Positions 43,765 through 59,507 are shown, counted from the stretch's first letter. The stretch: DNA of 64,000 nucleotides from an uncultured Gammaproteobacteria bacterium (GCA_964392925.1 CAYMRP010000002.1:72759-136758), one strand, 5' to 3'. Numbers and translations: made by a program. The notes: generated by a model from the letters alone, not told the origin.

Positions 43765-44994
43765 ATGCCCATACTAGAACGTAGACGCTTCATAGCCCTC
43801 CTTGCCGGAGCCTCAGCAGGAACAGCCATCGCTTTAACAGAAAGTAACCCTTCAATAGCCTTGGCTAGCCCCTTAAAATCTGAAGCTTTCCAACCTCAGA
43901 TCATAACTCCCCCTGCACATATACACACCTTTAATCCTCTTCTCCGTTTACAACAAACCTCAACAGACCTGGCAGCTCGGCCCTTAAACACCCAACAAGC
44001 AGACATGCTCTTAAATCAACTCGCAGACTGGAACGTCACCAGAACTGACGGCATACTAACCGACCCATCATTACTTTCAAATACTTACTTATTAACAAAT
44101 GGTCCAGAAACCACTACTAAACCTCCATATGATAAAAACTCCGACCCTTTAAAACATCCAGTCATACAAGATTTTTATACCAGATATCCCGACTATCAAT
44201 ATTCAGTGGAATCAGCAGAAAGACTTCTTTTTCTTTATTACACACCTGCGCTTGGAGCAACTCCAAATTCTGGGACCAGAGAATCGATTATTAATCTTGA
44301 TGCAACAAATAGGCCCCAGATCAACCCTCAAAGAAGAGGGGCTCTATTATTTCAATACCACGGAGTTGAGGCCGATCCAATAAAAACGACTGCTACTCCT
44401 CCAATCGTCCTTTTATCTACCGGACAGCATGAATGGGTTCATCAAGATAATTGGGGAATCAAAAAACCTCTGGACCAAGATTTAATAACCTTCTTAGAAC
44501 ACGACTATAAAGGAAAATCAAAACCCACTTTCGCCGGGAGCCAGGATAATTTTGCGGTCAATTACACTCTAACCAACGAAGACGGCGCTCAGATTCCTAG
44601 TTATAGTGTTAAATTCAATGAACTAATAACTGACTTTCTAAGCTCTGAAGTATTTAGACAAGCAGGTCTCCCTTTCTTCACAGGTTACGATCTCAAACCT
44701 ACAGACTATTTCAATATTCTAAGAATTATGGATCAATCAGGACTTAATCTGCAGACTCTGAATCAGATGTATAAACATGCGCGGCTAACCGATTTCTATC
44801 TTGCGATAGCTTCTGGAGCAGAAGCAGATGGTAAAAAAACCTTTTCAGAATCAAACAATAACAGAGATAAAATAGCTTTTGCCACAAAAATTATGCCCTG
44901 GTGGGATTTTCCGGATTGGAATCCAACTCCAAACGATCCTAGAAAATTAGACCCAACTGTTTATTACAGAGGTTTAGTAAAAGCAACAGCGTAA
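43765..44994 (+). CDS. hypothetical Tat-secreted protein
   Basis: 409 aa; twin-arginine signal ERRRFIALLAGASAGTAIA; TATAAT 6 nt upstream of ATG (leaderless). Confidence 0.55.
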   Translation: MPILERRRFIALLAGASAGTAIALTESNPSIALASPLKSEAFQPQIITPPAHIHTFNPLLRLQQTSTDLAARPLNTQQADMLLNQLADWNVTRTDGILTDPSLLSNTYLLTNGPETTTKPPYDKNSDPLKHPVIQDFYTRYPDYQYSVESAERLLFLYYTPALGATPNSGTRESIINLDATNRPQINPQRRGALLFQYHGVEADPIKTTATPPIVLLSTGQHEWVHQDNWGIKKPLDQDLITFLEHDYKGKSKPTFAGSQDNFAVNYTLTNEDGAQIPSYSVKFNELITDFLSSEVFRQAGLPFFTGYDLKPTDYFNILRIMDQSGLNLQTLNQMYKHARLTDFYLAIASGAEADGKKTFSESNNNRDKIAFATKIMPWWDFPDWNPTPNDPRKLDPTVYYRGLVKATA

Positions 44995-56779: not shown

Positions 56780-56797
56780 AATAGAATGGTAAATTTA

Positions 56798-56826
56798 TTG
56801 ACTTTTTACCTTCAAGTTGATATATT
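56798..56826 (+). promoter_or_regulatory. sigma70-like promoter TTGACT-17-TATATT
   Basis: -35 56798-56803, 17-nt spacer, -10 56821-56826; drives the 30-aa ORF. Confidence 0.55.
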
Positions 56827-56863
56827 GTAACTCATAGCTTCCTGAAAAGGAGCTTTTTAAACA

Positions 56864-56956
56864 AATGAACAGAAATAATTCATCACTTCTTAGCCTTCTT
56901 AACCTCAACATTGTTGAGGTCGTACTCGTCGTGGGTACAAAAGGAGGCGCTTTTTA
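56864..56956 (+). CDS. 30-aa hydrophobic peptide (MNRNNSSLLSLLNLNIVEVVLVVGTKGGAF)
   Basis: SD aaaaggag 8 nt upstream of ATG, own promoter and terminator; below ORF-track cutoff. Confidence 0.45.
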
Positions 56957-56987
56957 AGAAATAAAAAATCTTAAAAAGAAGACACAA

Positions 56988-57012
56988 GCCTCCTTAACAG
57001 GAGGTTTTTTTT
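56988..57012 (+). terminator. rho-independent terminator (cctcc-ttaaca-ggagg + T9)
   Basis: seen directly in sequence. Confidence 0.7.
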
Positions 57013-57016
57013 TGGT

Positions 57017-57091
57017 CAAAAATTCCACTGGAAGTTTTGACGGGTCAAGCACTATGACCGCCGGAGGCGGAATACAATATCAATCTTGACC
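57017..57091. repeat. composite element copy 1: palindrome AAAATTCCActGGAAgTTTT + inverted repeat GGGTCAAG...CTTGACCC enclosing CCGCCGGAGGCGG hairpin
   Basis: mirrors arrangement at 58398-58470. Confidence 0.6.
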
Positions 57092-57135
57092 CAGTAAAAT
57101 ATTTGTAAAAAATTAAAAGAAAGGAGGAAATAAAT

Positions 57136-57375
57136 ATGGTTGACATAAAGAACGGATATGATTGGGATTTTAGCCTAAGTGCTTCAACCCAAAAGCCCAG
57201 AATAGATTTAGATAAAGAAGCTCAAAAAATGATGGATGGGATAAGAAACGGATCTCAATCCCAAGTGGATTCCGCTAAAGAAGCCCTAAAAAGGTTTGAA
57301 CTAATCAGAGCTACTAATCCAATTGATAGATTTCAAGCTGGAAGAGTAGACAGGAAACCTCAGGCTAAAAAATAG
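57136..57375 (+). CDS. hypothetical small protein (79 aa)
   Basis: strong SD aaaggagg; N-terminal KNGYDWDFS motif shared with next ORF (DDSYDWQPS). Confidence 0.55.
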   Translation: MVDIKNGYDWDFSLSASTQKPRIDLDKEAQKMMDGIRNGSQSQVDSAKEALKRFELIRATNPIDRFQAGRVDRKPQAKK

Positions 57376-57467
57376 GAGCACAAGAGCTCGCTTGTCTGAG
57401 CAAAGAAGATAAAAAGCTGGAGGGGATATCAAAGGAAATATCCCCTCCAAAAGAAAGGAAAATAAAA

Positions 57468-57872
57468 ATGAAACATGAAATAGGAATGTGTGATTTTGAT
57501 GACTCGTACGATTGGCAGCCATCAAATAAAAAGAATGATAAACCAGATTTACCAAGGGGTGTTAAAGCTACTCCAAGTATTTCTATTGAAACTCGGGAAC
57601 CAGTTCCTGCAGCAACTAAAAGAAATGCCATCAGCTTAGCTGAATGGGTAATTAAAAATAGGGACGCAAACTCTCTGTCTTTCGGCGAAAAAACCGCCTG
57701 GAGCCAGGGAATAGGTTTCATCAAAGAAAGAGATACGCTTAACAGCGCAACAAGAGTTGATACTCAAACTTCTGATACTGAAACTATAGAAATAAAGGCA
57801 AAACCATTAGAGCAATTTATAACTCCCACAGCTTCCCCAGCTGCTAGCCGAACTCTTGCCCTCGCCCTCTAA
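57468..57872 (+). CDS. hypothetical small protein (134 aa)
   Basis: SD gaaaggaaaa; shares N-terminal YDW motif with preceding ORF. Confidence 0.55.
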   Translation: MKHEIGMCDFDDSYDWQPSNKKNDKPDLPRGVKATPSISIETREPVPAATKRNAISLAEWVIKNRDANSLSFGEKTAWSQGIGFIKERDTLNSATRVDTQTSDTETIEIKAKPLEQFITPTASPAASRTLALAL

Positions 57873-57883
57873 AAACTGACTAT

Positions 57884-58234
57884 ATGACCCGCAGAAAAAA
57901 TCCAGAATGGAGTGATCCTACAGCAGAAGCAGCAATTTCAAAATTAAGTTTTGCTGGGAAAGAAAAAACATCCAAACCACCTCCAACAAACTACCAGGGA
58001 GTCGAGTTTTTAAGCAGATTTAATACTCCGTCTGAATCAAAAGAAAGAAGGAGATTAATCAAAAATCTTAATAAAGAAATTGACACTCTCTGCAAGGATG
58101 ATCCCATGAGGATTGAGCTATCCAGAAAAAGAGCAAGGCTTGAAGCCCAACAATTCGCCTCCAGAGTAAGTTCAGATGTTTTTAAAGAAAACAGACGCCA
58201 TCGCAAAGCAATCTTGCATTCACTACGCCCTTAG
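57884..58234 (+). CDS. hypothetical basic small protein (116 aa)
   Basis: Lys/Arg-rich, predicted helical; own ORF between island genes. Confidence 0.5.
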   Translation: MTRRKNPEWSDPTAEAAISKLSFAGKEKTSKPPPTNYQGVEFLSRFNTPSESKERRRLIKNLNKEIDTLCKDDPMRIELSRKRARLEAQQFASRVSSDVFKENRRHRKAILHSLRP

Positions 58235-58367
58235 TTTAAAATCTTTATTAATGACAACTTTCAGCACTCAAATTATGTCCTCCATTATCATTGTTAGCCC
58301 AATTATTGGGCGCAATCTCGGGAGGACTTTTTAGAGTAAAACTTTAAAAAGAAAGGCAAAAACCTAA

Positions 58368-58392
58368 CCTCCCGCAAGGGGGGCTTTTTTTT
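58368..58392 (+). terminator. rho-independent terminator (cctccc-gcaa-gggggg + T8)
   Basis: seen directly. Confidence 0.7.
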
Positions 58393-58397
58393 GGCTT

Positions 58398-58470
58398 GAA
58401 TGTCCAATGGACATTTAAGCGGGTCAATTACATTTAAGCCATCGCAGGATTGTAATGATGAAATTGACCC
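58398..58470. repeat. composite element copy 2: palindrome AATGTCCAaTGGACATT + inverted repeat GGGTCAATT...AATTGACCC
   Basis: same order and spacing relative to the preceding terminator as copy 1. Confidence 0.6.
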
Positions 58471-58847
58471 AGAAAGAAATTATGGCAGTATCACCTGAAA
58501 CACCTAGACAAATAAACCTAAAACAAAAAGTTGCTGTAGCCCAAAGCCTCTACCTACCAAAGGATGGGCGAGCAGAATTGATGCGCGCCAGACTTAAACA
58601 TGCTCCAGATGGAATAGAAGACGGTGTTACTGGTTTTGAACTAGATTCATTAGGAGGAGTTCAAAAAATATACACCCAGGACAAAAAACAATGGTATGAG
58701 ATTTTCCTTTTTGGACCAATAAAAAACCGTGACAGAGAATTAATTGCTCAGTACTTTGGTTTTAATGAAAAACAGAATCAACAGGTCCCAGGTATCGATC
58801 AGGTTGGTCCTTTTAGAATAAGAAAAAATTATTTCGTAACAACTTAA
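58455..58847 (+). CDS. hypothetical small protein (130 aa; alternative start 58482)
   Basis: ORF begins inside the inverted repeat; second ATG at 58482 (MAVSPETP) may be the real start. Confidence 0.5.
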   Translation: MMKLTQKEIMAVSPETPRQINLKQKVAVAQSLYLPKDGRAELMRARLKHAPDGIEDGVTGFELDSLGGVQKIYTQDKKQWYEIFLFGPIKNRDRELIAQYFGFNEKQNQQVPGIDQVGPFRIRKNYFVTT

Positions 58848-58865
58848 AAGAAAGGAGGATTAATA

Positions 58866-59129
58866 ATGGATAGAAAAAATGGATTAGATGTCAGACCCAA
58901 CTTGCCGGTAGAAAATCAACCCAATGGAATTCCTGTAGTCCGTGCAGTCATCGATGCAGATGTTAGGTTTGCACTAGCGGCAGGAATTGATTATACAATC
59001 GATCCAATAACTACAGCATTGGCTAAAAATGGAACTTATTTAGCAGCACCACCGACTGATAGTGAAGTAGCAGCTGCTGTATTTTCAGGCTTAAATTACT
59101 CATTGCCCGGACCTAAAAAAACTCGGTAA
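58866..59129 (+). CDS. hypothetical small protein (87 aa)
   Basis: strong SD aaaggaggattaataATG. Confidence 0.55.
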   Translation: MDRKNGLDVRPNLPVENQPNGIPVVRAVIDADVRFALAAGIDYTIDPITTALAKNGTYLAAPPTDSEVAAAVFSGLNYSLPGPKKTR

Positions 59130-59293
59130 AAGTCCATCATTACGGGGGAACACGCCCAACTCCCTCGTAATGGCCAAACTCATCAAATTCTATATGACTT
59201 TGCAAGCGAAGAACTTACTCTTCGCTTACTGGATTTTTATATAAACCTATTTATTGCTGAGTACTATTAATATCAATTAGGAGGTGAGTTTAA

Positions 59294-59440
59294 ATGTCAT
59301 TAAGCTTTGGCAACATGAGCCCTTTAGTATCTTTATTATTTGGAATACTTATCTTAATTTTTCCAAAATTAATTAATTATCTTATCGCCGCTTACTTAAT
59401 TATTGTTGGATTATTAGGACTCGGAATTATTCAGGGCTAG
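59294..59440 (+). CDS. DUF3096-like small membrane protein (48 aa)
   Basis: MSLSFGNMSPLVSLLFGILILIFPKLINYLIAAYLIIVGLLGLGIIQG; SD ttaggaggtgagtttaaATG; below ORF-track cutoff. Confidence 0.55.
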   Translation: MSLSFGNMSPLVSLLFGILILIFPKLINYLIAAYLIIVGLLGLGIIQG

Positions 59441-59507
59441 CAGTAATAGGCAGTGAAAGATCTCTTGATTGCATAAGAACTTTTATCTGCCTATACTAAA
59501 TATCAAT

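What the first reader, a model, noticed from the sequence alone, without database searches (positions are those of the whole stretch)
56780..59460. Compact island of about seven small ORFs with strong SD sites, own promoter/terminators and paired palindromic elements
Between rluB and the LapA-like gene lies a 2.7-kb block that differs from the rest of the window. It holds seven ORFs of 30-134 aa (30, 79, 134, 116, 130, 87 and 48 aa), none with a recognisable enzymatic motif. Two of them (79 and 134 aa) share an N-terminal xYDWxxS motif, which suggests paralogy. Almost every ORF is preceded by a canonical AAAGGAGG Shine-Dalgarno, whereas most housekeeping genes here have no SD and several are leaderless (for example TATAAT 6 nt before the ATG at 43765). 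The block carries a near-consensus sigma70 promoter (TTGACT-17-TATATT at 56798) and two strong intrinsic terminators (56988, 58368). Each terminator is followed by a copy of a composite palindrome. This looks like a self-contained, separately regulated module of small proteins. It could be a toxin/antitoxin-like, phage-derived, signalling or cell-surface small-protein system. It is the least housekeeping-like region of the window.
Basis: partly seen in the sequence, partly recalled or inferred. Interest (0 to 1): 0.7.

Follow-up and report, generated by a model that had tools for sequence, protein, structure and literature searches.

The report
Twin leader-peptide attenuators, hypervariable small genes
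The "island" is an operon in a Daviesbacteria-like (candidate phyla radiation) genome whose two "terminators" look like a pair of leucine/valine- and isoleucine-sensing leader-peptide switches that gate fast-evolving small proteins of unknown role: a textbook switch in an unusual lineage with unusual cargo.

Summary
The interpretation needs revising. Each "terminator" is the last hairpin of a four-segment, ribosome-dependent transcription attenuator. The 30-aa ORF (Leu/Val-rich) is its leader peptide. A second, overlooked 27-aa ORF (Ile-rich, 58251-58334) is the leader of the second copy. In folding simulations a ribosome stalled in the branched-chain-codon run lets the antiterminator form, and a ribosome at the stop codon does not. 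Leader DNA is 91% identical in a relative whose flanks are 72-74% identical. In two relatives the Ile-type leader sits directly in front of biosynthetic acetolactate synthase (ilvB), a canonical target. The block keeps its position (pseudouridine synthase | block | DUF3096-LapA-NUDIX) in about 12 related Daviesbacteria-like contigs. Its cargo turns over fast: one family is 23-32% identical between strains whose flanking proteins are 92-100% identical. No cargo family matches Pfam, PHROGs, NCBIfam, PADLOC or viral structures. The 79/134-aa paralogy is not supported. The two-hairpin "palindrome" after each terminator is real, with strong covariation, but is optional among relatives and unexplained. 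Verdict: a known regulatory kind with no matching Rfam family, and cargo of unknown function.

The parts
56798..56826 (+). Promoter P1, TTGACT-17-(TG)TATATT
   Evidence: 10/12 match. The same TTGAC(T/A)-17-TATATT is conserved upstream of leader 1 in L002, L003, L006, L008 and L009.
56836..56854 (+). 5' hairpin AGCUUCC..GGAGCU carrying the SD of leader peptide 1 in its 3' arm
   Evidence: Read from the sequence and present in the folds. Conserved in L006, L095 and L097, and with a compensatory change in L090.
56865..56957 (+). Leader peptide 1 ORF (30 aa, MNRNNSSLLSLLNLNIVEVVLVVGTKGGAF), Leu/Val type
   Evidence: Orthologous peptides occur in L002, L003, L006, L008, L009, L087, L090, L095, L097 and L098. 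The predicted stall window is 11/15 Leu/Ile/Val.
56893..56900 (+). Segment 1 (GCCUUCUU) inside the Leu codons. It pairs with segment 2.
   Evidence: MFE structures. Anchored pair counts (flanking pair GC7/UA4/UG3).
56941..56948 (+). Segment 2 (AAGGAGGC), 7 nt before the leader stop codon. It pairs with either segment 1 or segment 3.
56950..56978 (+). Spacer hairpin CUUUUUAAGA..UCUUAAAAAG, which contains the leader stop codon
   Evidence: compensatory changes among type-2 copies. L090 has a different sequence in the same position.
56986..57013 (+). Segments 3 and 4: intrinsic terminator of attenuator 1 (9-bp stem plus U9)
57015..57092 (+). Accessory element copy 1: hairpin A (57015-57041) and hairpin B (57042-57092)
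   Evidence: Optional among relatives.
57136..57375 (+). ORF79, occupant of the variable 'slot 1' (orphan, strong SD)
   Evidence: Homologues only in L097 and L002. Unrelated genes sit in this slot in L006, L095, L090 and L003.
57417..57450 (+). Intercistronic 14-bp GC-rich hairpin without a U tract, about 20 nt upstream of ORF134
   Evidence: Conserved with compensatory changes in L095, L097, L006, L002 and L090. DNA similarity to L006 resumes here.
57468..57872 (+). ORF134 = family B (N-terminal D-x-x-DW motif, helical hairpin, otherwise disordered)
   Evidence: 11 proteins in 5.8e9. AF2 pLDDT 60.7. Present after leader 1 in every complete locus examined.
57884..58234 (+). ORF116 = family C (basic, pI 10.5, predicted helical)
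58214..58242 (+). Candidate internal promoter P2, TTGCAT-17-TAAAAT, 8 nt before the leader 2 ATG (weak; inferred)
   Evidence: Read. A stronger TTGCAA-17-TATACT sits at the same place in L004, L005 and L099. Not listed by the scan.
58251..58334 (+). Leader peptide 2 ORF (27 aa, MTTFSTQIMSSIIIVSPIIGRNLGRTF), Ile type. Segment 1' is GUCCUCC at 58277-58283 and segment 2' is GGGAGGAC at 58320-58327.
   Evidence: Orthologues in L002-L006, L009, L087, L090, L095, L097, L098 and L099.
58368..58392 (+). Intrinsic terminator of attenuator 2 (CCUCCC-GCAA-GGGGGG plus C-U8)
58394..58470 (+). Accessory element copy 2: hairpin A (58394-58420) and hairpin B (58421-58470)
58482..58847 (+).
58866..59129 (+). 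ORF87 = family E, fused to D in L003 and L004 and replaced by other small ORFs in L006, L095, L097 and L090
59138..59237 (+). Structured 3' end of the block: hairpin 59138-59172, then terminator-like hairpin 59204-59227 plus a U-rich tail
   Evidence: z = -5.0. Similarity to L006 resumes at 59214.

Best explanation
The block is one operon, possibly with an internal second promoter. It is governed by two paralogous ribosome-dependent (leader-peptide) transcription attenuators that read the supply of charged branched-chain tRNAs.

Proposed mechanism, all of it inferred:
1. Transcription starts at P1.
2. A ribosome translates the 30-aa uORF.
3. If Leu/Val-tRNA is plentiful, the ribosome runs to the stop codon and covers segment 2. 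Segments 3 and 4 then form the terminator and RNA polymerase stops at about 57013.
4. If the ribosome stalls in the Leu/Val run, it covers segment 1. Segment 2 then pairs with segment 3 (the antiterminator), and transcription reads through into ORF79, ORF134 and ORF116.
5. The second attenuator works the same way with an Ile-rich 27-aa uORF and gates ORF121 and ORF87.

Shown here: the anatomy, its conservation, the in-silico switching and the ilvB link in relatives. Inferred: the response to starvation.

The cargo are lineage-restricted cytoplasmic small proteins (families B, C, D and E, plus a variable slot). Their biochemical role is unknown. My best guess is strain-specific starvation-response or interaction factors. 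D/E behaves like a co-diversifying two-part pair.
For: 1. Anatomy. Both copies have uORF, segment 1, segment 2, spacer hairpin, segment 3, segment 4 and a U8-9 run. In nearly all of the 13 leader copies folded, the unconstrained MFE shows the 1:2 helix plus the terminator.

2. Switching in silico. A 28-nt ribosome footprint was masked in 21 copies from 12 loci.
   - With the A-site in the Leu/Val or Ile run, segment 3 is paired upstream with P about 1.0.
   - With the A-site in the last codons or at the stop, P falls to 0.02-0.5, and to 0.1 or less in both window copies.
   - At full-length equilibrium, terminator probability falls to about 0 only for stalls in the Ile run in W2, L003, L004 and L006, and to 0.1-0.3 for type 1 in L002 and L003.
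   - Switch scores are 0.97 and 0.92, against 0.01 +/- 0.24 and 0.02 +/- 0.29 in dinucleotide shuffles. None of 100 shuffles reaches the observed value.

3. Regulatory codons. The predicted stall windows are 11/15 or 9/11 Leu/Ile/Val (5/10 in L008) for type 1. They are 7/14 to 9/15 for type 2. The window's proteins average 25%.

4. Constraint at the RNA level.
   - Leader 2 DNA is 91% identical to L003, whose flanks are 72-74% identical.
   - RNAalifold returns the antiterminator as the consensus for type 1, and the 1:2 helix plus terminator fold for type 2.
   - In the anchored alignment, the pairs flanking the invariant pentamers covary. For the antiterminator, 80% of cells are paired against 55% or less when slid, and 4 of 500 shuffles reach the observed score.

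5. Canonical target in relatives. In L009 and L087 the Ile-type leader and terminator lie directly in front of a biosynthetic-type acetolactate synthase large subunit (TIGR00118, 631.6 and 629.4 bits, cut-off 538). IlvE lies about 0.7 kb away in the window.

6. The L1-gated proteins have Leu/Ile/Val contents of 0.147-0.164, at the bottom of the window's range. That would suit synthesis during BCAA shortage.

7. Precedent. uORF attenuation is described as a common way of regulating ilvB (PMC10272879, PMC1262725, PMC5794164).
Against: - No transcript or translation data exist. Everything is sequence and folding inference.
- In this window the gated genes are not BCAA biosynthesis genes, and no AHAS is present in the 64 kb.
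- In several copies (L006_1, L008_1, L009_1/2, L002_2) the full-length equilibrium still favours the terminator with a stalled ribosome. The model therefore needs co-transcriptional (kinetic) folding.
- Without a ribosome, truncated transcripts partly form the antiterminator (P 0.4-0.9 in most copies; range 0.07-1.0).
- Covariation within the three key helices is modest, because the GGAGG/CCUCC cores are invariant.
- Leader 2 has no SD, and its start codon is inferred.
- Precedent for caution: for a similar ilvB leader in Streptomyces coelicolor, mutating the candidate regulatory codons did not change regulation (PMC1262725).
Confidence: 0.78

Rival explanations
1. The leaders are attenuators, but the sensor is not a stalled ribosome. 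A protein, tRNA or small ligand (T-box-like, ppGpp/ykkC-like, or TRAP/PyrR-like) would choose between antiterminator and terminator. On this view the ORFs are incidental.
For: Alternative structures exist regardless of what selects between them. ilvB genes in some bacteria are controlled by ppGpp riboswitches (PMC10272879). All three codon positions in the leaders are conserved, which fits an RNA-only element just as well.
Against: - No T-box, ykkC or other Rfam family is found, even at E up to 10. Only terminator-level matches to Phe_leader and Trp_leader appear.
- An in-frame start and stop are kept in all 21 copies, although the sequences differ.
- The stop codon always falls so that a terminating ribosome covers segment 2. 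Where the stop moved (L009, L087, L090), it still lies just 5' of segment 2.
- BCAA codons are concentrated exactly over and after segment 1.
Confidence: 0.08
2. The 30- and 27-aa ORFs encode functional small hydrophobic peptides (type I toxin-like or membrane peptides), each with its own terminator. The downstream genes would be transcribed from other promoters.
For: Both peptides are hydrophobic (GRAVY 0.70 and 0.74) and their amino-acid sequences are conserved. A candidate promoter lies before leader 2. Leader peptides can have functions in trans (PMC7298713).
Against: - Conservation is at the nucleotide level in all codon positions, not a synonymous pattern.
- The peptides are too short and too interrupted (N, S, G, P) for a clean TM helix.
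- No promoter-like site of at least 9/12 lies between the terminators and the next genes, apart from weak AT-rich matches.
- The four-segment switch and the ilvB context are not explained.
- There is no PADLOC or Pfam toxin hit.
Confidence: 0.06
3. The block is a mobile or phage-derived cassette array (integron-, MITE- or moron-like). The repeated structured elements would be recombination sites rather than regulators.
For: - Cargo differs between near-identical strains while the structured 'punctuation' is conserved.
- The accessory A/B element is gained or lost as a discrete unit of about 78 nt.
- Strong SD sites are atypical for this genome.
Against: - GC content is the same as the genome's.
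- The chromosomal position is fixed in all relatives.
- No phage, transposase or defence family hit among the block's ORFs. The window's other genes were not screened for an integrase or transposase.
- There are no relatives on viral contigs and no viral structural match.
- The A/B elements occur only after the two leaders.
- Homologous recombination using the conserved leaders as anchors could explain the turnover without a dedicated mobility mechanism.
Confidence: 0.05

Closest known systems
Enterobacterial ilvGMEDA (ilvL), ilvBN (ivbL) and leu (leuL) leader-peptide attenuators (my own knowledge of the classical systems; Rfam Leu_leader RF00512 and relatives)
   Same: A short uORF rich in Leu/Val/Ile codons. 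Four RNA segments give mutually exclusive 1:2, 2:3 and 3:4 pairings. An intrinsic terminator lies before the first structural gene. The stop codon is placed so that a terminating ribosome blocks the antiterminator.
   Different: - No sequence or covariance-model similarity. Rfam gives only terminator-level matches below threshold (Phe_leader 30.7 bits against a gathering score of 55).
- Two specialised attenuators (Leu/Val, then Ile) sit in series within one gene cluster, rather than one multivalent leader.
- An extra spacer hairpin lies between segments 2 and 3.
- In this window the gated genes are orphan small proteins, not biosynthetic enzymes.
ilvB uORF attenuators of Actinobacteria (Corynebacterium ilvB-II motif; candidate leaders in Mycobacterium and Streptomyces) (PMC10272879, PMC1262725)
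   Same: A BCAA-enriched uORF plus terminator directly upstream of ilvB. This is exactly what relatives L009 and L087 show for the Ile-type leader.
   Different: A different phylum (CPR/Microgenomates). No sequence similarity was tested or expected. Here the same leader type precedes a hypervariable orphan gene in most relatives.
Leucine-rich attenuator peptide of the Staphylococcus aureus ilv-leu operon and the Listeria ilv leader (PMC5794164, PMC5864092)
   Same: Leader-peptide attenuation tuned to one BCAA. In Listeria, BCAA scarcity is used as a signal beyond biosynthesis.
   Different: Those leaders control BCAA biosynthesis operons and act together with CodY. No CodY link or biosynthetic cargo is seen in this window.
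Type I toxin-antitoxin small hydrophobic peptides, and integron cassette arrays
   Same: Small hydrophobic ORFs followed by terminators. Short variable ORFs are separated by structured repeats.
   Different: No antisense RNA, toxin family, integrase or attC-type site was found. The structured repeats are attenuators with a ribosome-dependent logic.

Membership tests
Ribosome-dependent (leader-peptide) transcription attenuator | Short uORF with in-frame start and stop upstream of the regulated genes | tested here: met
   56865-56957 and 58251-58334. Kept in 21 copies from 12 loci, plus L098 and L099.
Ribosome-dependent (leader-peptide) transcription attenuator | Run of codons for the sensed amino acid(s) in the uORF | tested here: met
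   Stall windows are 11/15 or 9/11 Leu/Ile/Val (5/10 in L008) for type 1, and 7/14 to 9/15 (mostly Ile) for type 2. The proteome average is 25%.
Ribosome-dependent (leader-peptide) transcription attenuator | Intrinsic terminator between the uORF and the first structural gene | tested here: met
   56986-57013 and 58368-58392.
Ribosome-dependent (leader-peptide) transcription attenuator | Antiterminator (2:3) mutually exclusive with the terminator, and an anti-antiterminator (1:2) whose 5' strand overlaps the regulatory codons | tested here: met
   In silico only: (0/100 shuffles reach the observed switch score).
Ribosome-dependent (leader-peptide) transcription attenuator | Stop codon placed so that a terminating ribosome occludes segment 2 | tested here: met
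   The stop is 7 nt 3' of segment 2 in the window copies, and just 5' of it in L009, L087 and L090. P(antiterminator) falls to 0.02-0.5 across copies, and to 0.1 or less in the window copies.
Ribosome-dependent (leader-peptide) transcription attenuator | Regulated genes belong to the pathway of the sensed amino acid | tested here: inconclusive
   Met in relatives L009 and L087 (ilvB, TIGR00118 above cut-off). Not met in the window, where the cargo is orphan and no AHAS is present.
Ribosome-dependent (leader-peptide) transcription attenuator | Read-through rises when the cognate aminoacyl-tRNA is scarce | not testable with these tools
   Needs reporter assays, Term-seq or coupled transcription-translation.
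Rfam leader families (Leu_leader, Phe_leader, Trp_leader, His_leader, Thr_leader), T-box, ykkC/ppGpp | Covariance-model score at or above the family gathering score | tested here: not met
   Only tRNAs pass in the whole window. At E up to 10, Phe_leader scores 30.7 against 55 and Trp_leader 16.4 against 41, over the terminator portion only.
Toxin-antitoxin or anti-phage defence system | Match of at least one component to a known toxin, antitoxin or defence family | tested here: not met
Phage-derived module | Homology to phage protein families, or presence on viral contigs | tested here: not met
   PHROGs gives nothing below E 0.05. BFVD has no hit at E 1e-3 or better. IMG/VR has no match for family D.

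The most novel reading that the evidence does not exclude
A candidate-phyla-radiation lineage has taken the classical BCAA attenuator away from biosynthesis. Two serial sensors (Leu/Val, then Ile) would switch on a strain-specific, rapidly diversifying set of orphan small proteins when branched-chain amino acids run short. These would include a co-diversifying, sometimes fused D/E pair with an apparently new fold. The module would then be a nutrient-triggered host-interaction, competition or toxin/immunity-like system. Its cassettes would be exchanged between strains by recombination at the conserved structured RNA 'punctuation'. The extra A/B double hairpin would be a new post-attenuator RNA element.
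Probability: 0.3. Interest if true: 0.72.

Novelty: new variant of a known kind. Interest (0 to 1): 0.55.

Why it matters
- Ribosome-dependent attenuation is textbook biology in Proteobacteria, Actinobacteria and Firmicutes. I found no paper linking it to CPR/Patescibacteria.
- These organisms have tiny genomes, are thought to depend on hosts for amino acids, and are largely uncultured. A pair of amino-acid-specific attenuators therefore gives a direct, testable view of what such a cell does when Leu/Val or Ile becomes limiting.
- What it switches on appears to be, in most relatives, a fast-diversifying set of orphan proteins rather than enzymes. In two relatives ilvB occupies the same slot.
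- The finding also supplies a candidate new RNA family (two subtypes plus an accessory double hairpin) and four new protein families. One of these has a confident model without a significant structural neighbour.

Tried and rejected
- Family searches on every ORF (Pfam, PHROGs, NCBIfam, PADLOC): only DUF3096 for the 48-aa ORF.
- Rfam at gathering and at E up to 10: nothing but terminator-level noise.
- Paralogy of ORF79 and ORF134: rejected.
- Phage origin: rejected.
- Compositional island: rejected.
- A/B hairpins as a dispersed repeat or MITE: no other copies in the window or in 97 loci.
- A/B hairpin B as a promoter (TTGACC as -35): copy 2 has no -10 and ends 12 nt before the start codon, so this was dropped.
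- Family D as a relative of the 168-aa gene that follows ilvB in L087: no.
- Family B structure: the model is too poor (pLDDT 60.7) to search with.
- An exact-match scan of GTDB species genomes with a leader 1 22-mer found nothing. The afdb50 fold library was unavailable. A viral scan with family B failed for lack of conserved columns.
- MAFFT alignments of the two leader types together put segment 1 out of register. I therefore used an anchored alignment.

Full report
OBSERVATION. The seven ORFs have the reported coordinates and sizes. The promoter TTGACT-17-TATATT at 56798-56826 is the best sigma-70 match in the region (10/12, with a TG extension). It recurs upstream of the block in relatives. 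Terminator-like hairpins lie at 56986-57013 and 58368-58392. Each is followed by a two-hairpin palindrome (57015-57092 and 58394-58470). The GGTCAA..TTGACC frame occurs twice in 64 kb against 0.08 expected.

Strong Shine-Dalgarno sites are indeed concentrated here. GGAGG precedes ORF79, ORF87 and ORF48, and AGGAG precedes the 30-aa ORF. None of 55 crude genes elsewhere in the window has either motif upstream. ORF116, ORF130/121 and the second leader lack an SD, however. GC content is the same as the window's (0.386 vs 0.387). The proposed 79/134-aa paralogy fails both BLASTP (E 2.5) and profile-profile comparison (only YDW aligned, probability 0.3%).

WHAT THE REPEATED ELEMENT IS. Aligning and folding the two "terminator + palindrome" regions shows a larger repeated unit of about 170 nt. 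In order it contains:
- a small hydrophobic ORF;
- a G-rich segment (GGAGG) at the end of that ORF;
- a spacer hairpin;
- CCUCC, a loop and GGAGG (the terminator), then U8-9;
- hairpins A and B.

A pyrimidine-rich segment inside the ORF (GCCUUCUU at 56893-56900; GUCCUCC at 58277-58283) pairs with the first GGAGG. That gives four segments with mutually exclusive pairings 1:2, 2:3 and 3:4, the classical attenuator layout. In nearly all of the 13 copies folded without constraint, the MFE shows 1:2 plus the terminator.

COMPARATIVE EVIDENCE. Exact look-ups and homology searches recovered about a dozen related contigs. The nearest named relative is a Candidatus Daviesbacteria MAG, and two close MAGs are labelled Gammaproteobacteria. 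In all of them the block lies after the pseudouridine synthase gene. On the far side lies DUF3096-LapA-NUDIX or, in L009 and L087, ilvB. Both leader peptides are conserved.

The leader DNA is conserved in all three codon positions. It is more conserved than the flanks: leader 2 is 91% identical to L003, whose flanks are 72-74% identical. This points to a constraint on the RNA.

RNAalifold on type-1 copies returns the antiterminator as the consensus. On type-2 copies it returns the 1:2 helix, inner hairpin, spacer hairpin and terminator. I also built an alignment anchored on the invariant pentamers. In it, the flanking pairs covary:
- 1:2 helix: GC7/UA4/UG3 at one flanking pair;
- antiterminator: CG6/AU2/UA2 and GC11/AU2/GU1, with 80% of cells paired against 55% or less when slid, and 4 of 500 shuffles reaching the observed score;
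- terminator: CG11/UA4 at one pair, with overall scores no better than shuffles.

This covariation is modest, because the core pentamers never vary.

SWITCH SIMULATION. I masked a 28-nt ribosome footprint codon by codon on transcripts truncated before segment 4.
- With the A-site in the Leu/Val run (type 1) or the Ile run (type 2), segment 3 is paired upstream with P about 1.0.
- With the A-site in the last codons or at the stop, P falls to 0.02-0.5, and to 0.1 or less in both window copies. This holds in all 21 copies.
- On full-length RNAs at equilibrium, terminator probability falls to about 0 for stalls in the Ile run in four type-2 copies. It falls to 0.1-0.3 in two type-1 copies. Other copies keep the terminator, so kinetic folding must be invoked.
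- The window's switch scores are 0.97 and 0.92, against 0.01-0.02 +/- 0.24-0.29 in dinucleotide shuffles (0 of 100 reach the observed value).
- The permissive stall windows are 11/15 or 9/11 Leu/Ile/Val in type 1 (5/10 in L008) and 7/14 to 9/15 in type 2. The window's proteins average 25%.

THE ilvB LINK. In L009 and L087 the order is promoter, leader 1, family B gene, family C gene, leader 2, then a 579-589-aa protein. That protein scores 629-632 bits on TIGR00118, the biosynthetic acetolactate synthase large subunit (cut-off 538). uORF attenuation of ilvB is an established theme (PMC10272879, PMC1262725). In the window, IlvE is the next gene but one upstream (NF005146, 323.8 bits against a cut-off of 279). 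No AHAS is present in the 64 kb.

CARGO. All-against-all BLASTP of the block's proteins defines four families and two variable slots:
- family B (ORF134), always first or second after leader 1;
- family C (ORF116);
- family D (ORF121, directly after leader 2);
- family E (ORF87), fused to D in L003 and L004;
- a variable slot 1, occupied by ORF79 here and by unrelated genes in L006, L095, L090 and L003;
- a variable slot after D.

Four strains were compared: the window, L095, L097 and L006. Their flanking proteins are 92-100% identical. Between the same strains B is 63-84%, C 45-89% and D 23-32% identical. At the DNA level, window 57140-57417 and 58490-59214 have no detectable similarity to L006, although the flanks are 91% identical.

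The families are tiny and clade-restricted. Each of B and D has 11 proteins among 5.8e9. For D, 23 clusters score E 0.001 or better among 1.84e9 representatives, 19 of them of D-like length.

None of the cargo ORFs scores as hydrophobic by mean hydropathy, and C is very basic (pI 10.5). Signal peptides and TM segments were not formally predicted. The three L1-gated proteins are unusually poor in Leu/Ile/Val (0.147-0.164). That fits synthesis under BCAA shortage, but it may simply reflect disorder.

ACCESSORY STRUCTURES.
- Hairpins A and B are strongly supported as structure: 99.3% of cells are paired, 8 of 19 pairs are compensatory, no shuffle of 500 reaches the observed score, and slid controls reach at most 58%.
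- They occur only directly after the attenuator terminators. They are present or absent as a discrete unit of about 78 nt among relatives, including the more distant L098.
- They would exist only on read-through RNA. I cannot assign a function to them. Processing, stabilisation or protein binding are guesses.
- A 14-bp GC-rich hairpin before ORF134 (57417-57450) is also conserved with compensatory changes.
- The block ends in a structured region with a terminator-like hairpin (59138-59237).

MECHANISM AND RIVALS. The best-supported model is ribosome-mediated attenuation that senses Leu/Val (leader 1) and Ile (leader 2) tRNA charging, at confidence about 0.78. If there is no internal promoter, D/E (or ilvB in relatives) requires read-through of both attenuators, which acts as a serial AND gate. 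A weak candidate promoter before leader 2 (58214-58242) is stronger in L004, L005 and L099, and could uncouple the two units.

The rivals are individually unlikely, for the reasons given in their entries:
- an RNA switch read by a protein, tRNA or ligand;
- functional hydrophobic peptides of type I toxin kind;
- a mobile or phage-derived cassette array.

The role of the cargo remains open. I favour strain-specific starvation-response or interaction proteins, with D/E as a co-diversifying pair, but this is inference.

COMPARISON AND NOVELTY. The element works like the enterobacterial ilv/leu attenuators and the actinobacterial and staphylococcal ilvB leaders. It meets every sequence-testable defining feature of a leader-peptide attenuator. 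It is not a member of any Rfam leader family. A full-text search found no paper combining leader peptide, attenuation and Patescibacteria.

The points of difference are:
- two amino-acid-specialised attenuators in series;
- an extra spacer hairpin;
- an optional post-terminator double hairpin;
- gating of hypervariable orphan proteins rather than biosynthetic enzymes.

I rate it a new variant of a known kind, with interest 0.55.

Noticed in passing
window 56836-56854: A 5'-terminal hairpin (AGCUUCC..GGAGCU) holds the SD of leader peptide 1 in its 3' arm. It is conserved, with a compensatory change in L090. It may time uORF translation or stabilise the 5' end. In L003 the -10 box lies about 8 nt before the leader ATG, which suggests a leaderless uORF.
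   Followed up: partly
window 58214-58242; L004 about 55-85; L099 upstream of 336: A candidate internal promoter lies just before leader 2. It is TTGCAT-17-TAAAAT in the window and a better TTGCAA-17-TATACT in L004, L005 and L099. It would make the second attenuator unit independently transcribed, with a nearly leaderless uORF.
   Followed up: partly
window 57417-57450: A 14-bp GC-rich hairpin without a U tract lies 20 nt upstream of ORF134. It is conserved with compensatory changes in five relatives and sits exactly at the boundary between the variable slot and the conserved B gene.
   Followed up: partly
L003 96-506; L006 2417-2824: An HTH (HTH_3/19/31) regulator gene lies between ilvE and the pseudouridine synthase in two relatives, but is absent from the window.
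   Followed up: no
window 57850-57872 and family B alignment A6: Family B proteins end in R-x-L-A-(L/A)-(A/S)-(L/KL). This is faintly reminiscent of an ssrA-type degradation tag and may mark them for rapid turnover.
   Followed up: no
whole window: Canonical GGAGG or AGGAG Shine-Dalgarno sites are almost absent before the window's larger genes (0 of 55 crude genes). That was not re-examined.
   Followed up: partly
L006 7390-9090; L095 9577-11232: Relatives carry a PMT_2-type glycosyltransferase insertion between tRNA-Ser and the class V aminotransferase. The window lacks it.
   Followed up: no
L007, L009 (CAYNRM010000063, CAYOSW010000018): The two MAGs closest to the window are titled 'uncultured Gammaproteobacteria', while the third closest is Candidatus Daviesbacteria. 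These are probably taxonomic mislabels of CPR bins.
   Followed up: no
L009 4253-4759 (-); L087 8998-9504: A conserved 168-aa orphan gene follows ilvB in the two relatives that carry it. There is no ilvN-like small subunit and no similarity to family D.
   Followed up: partly
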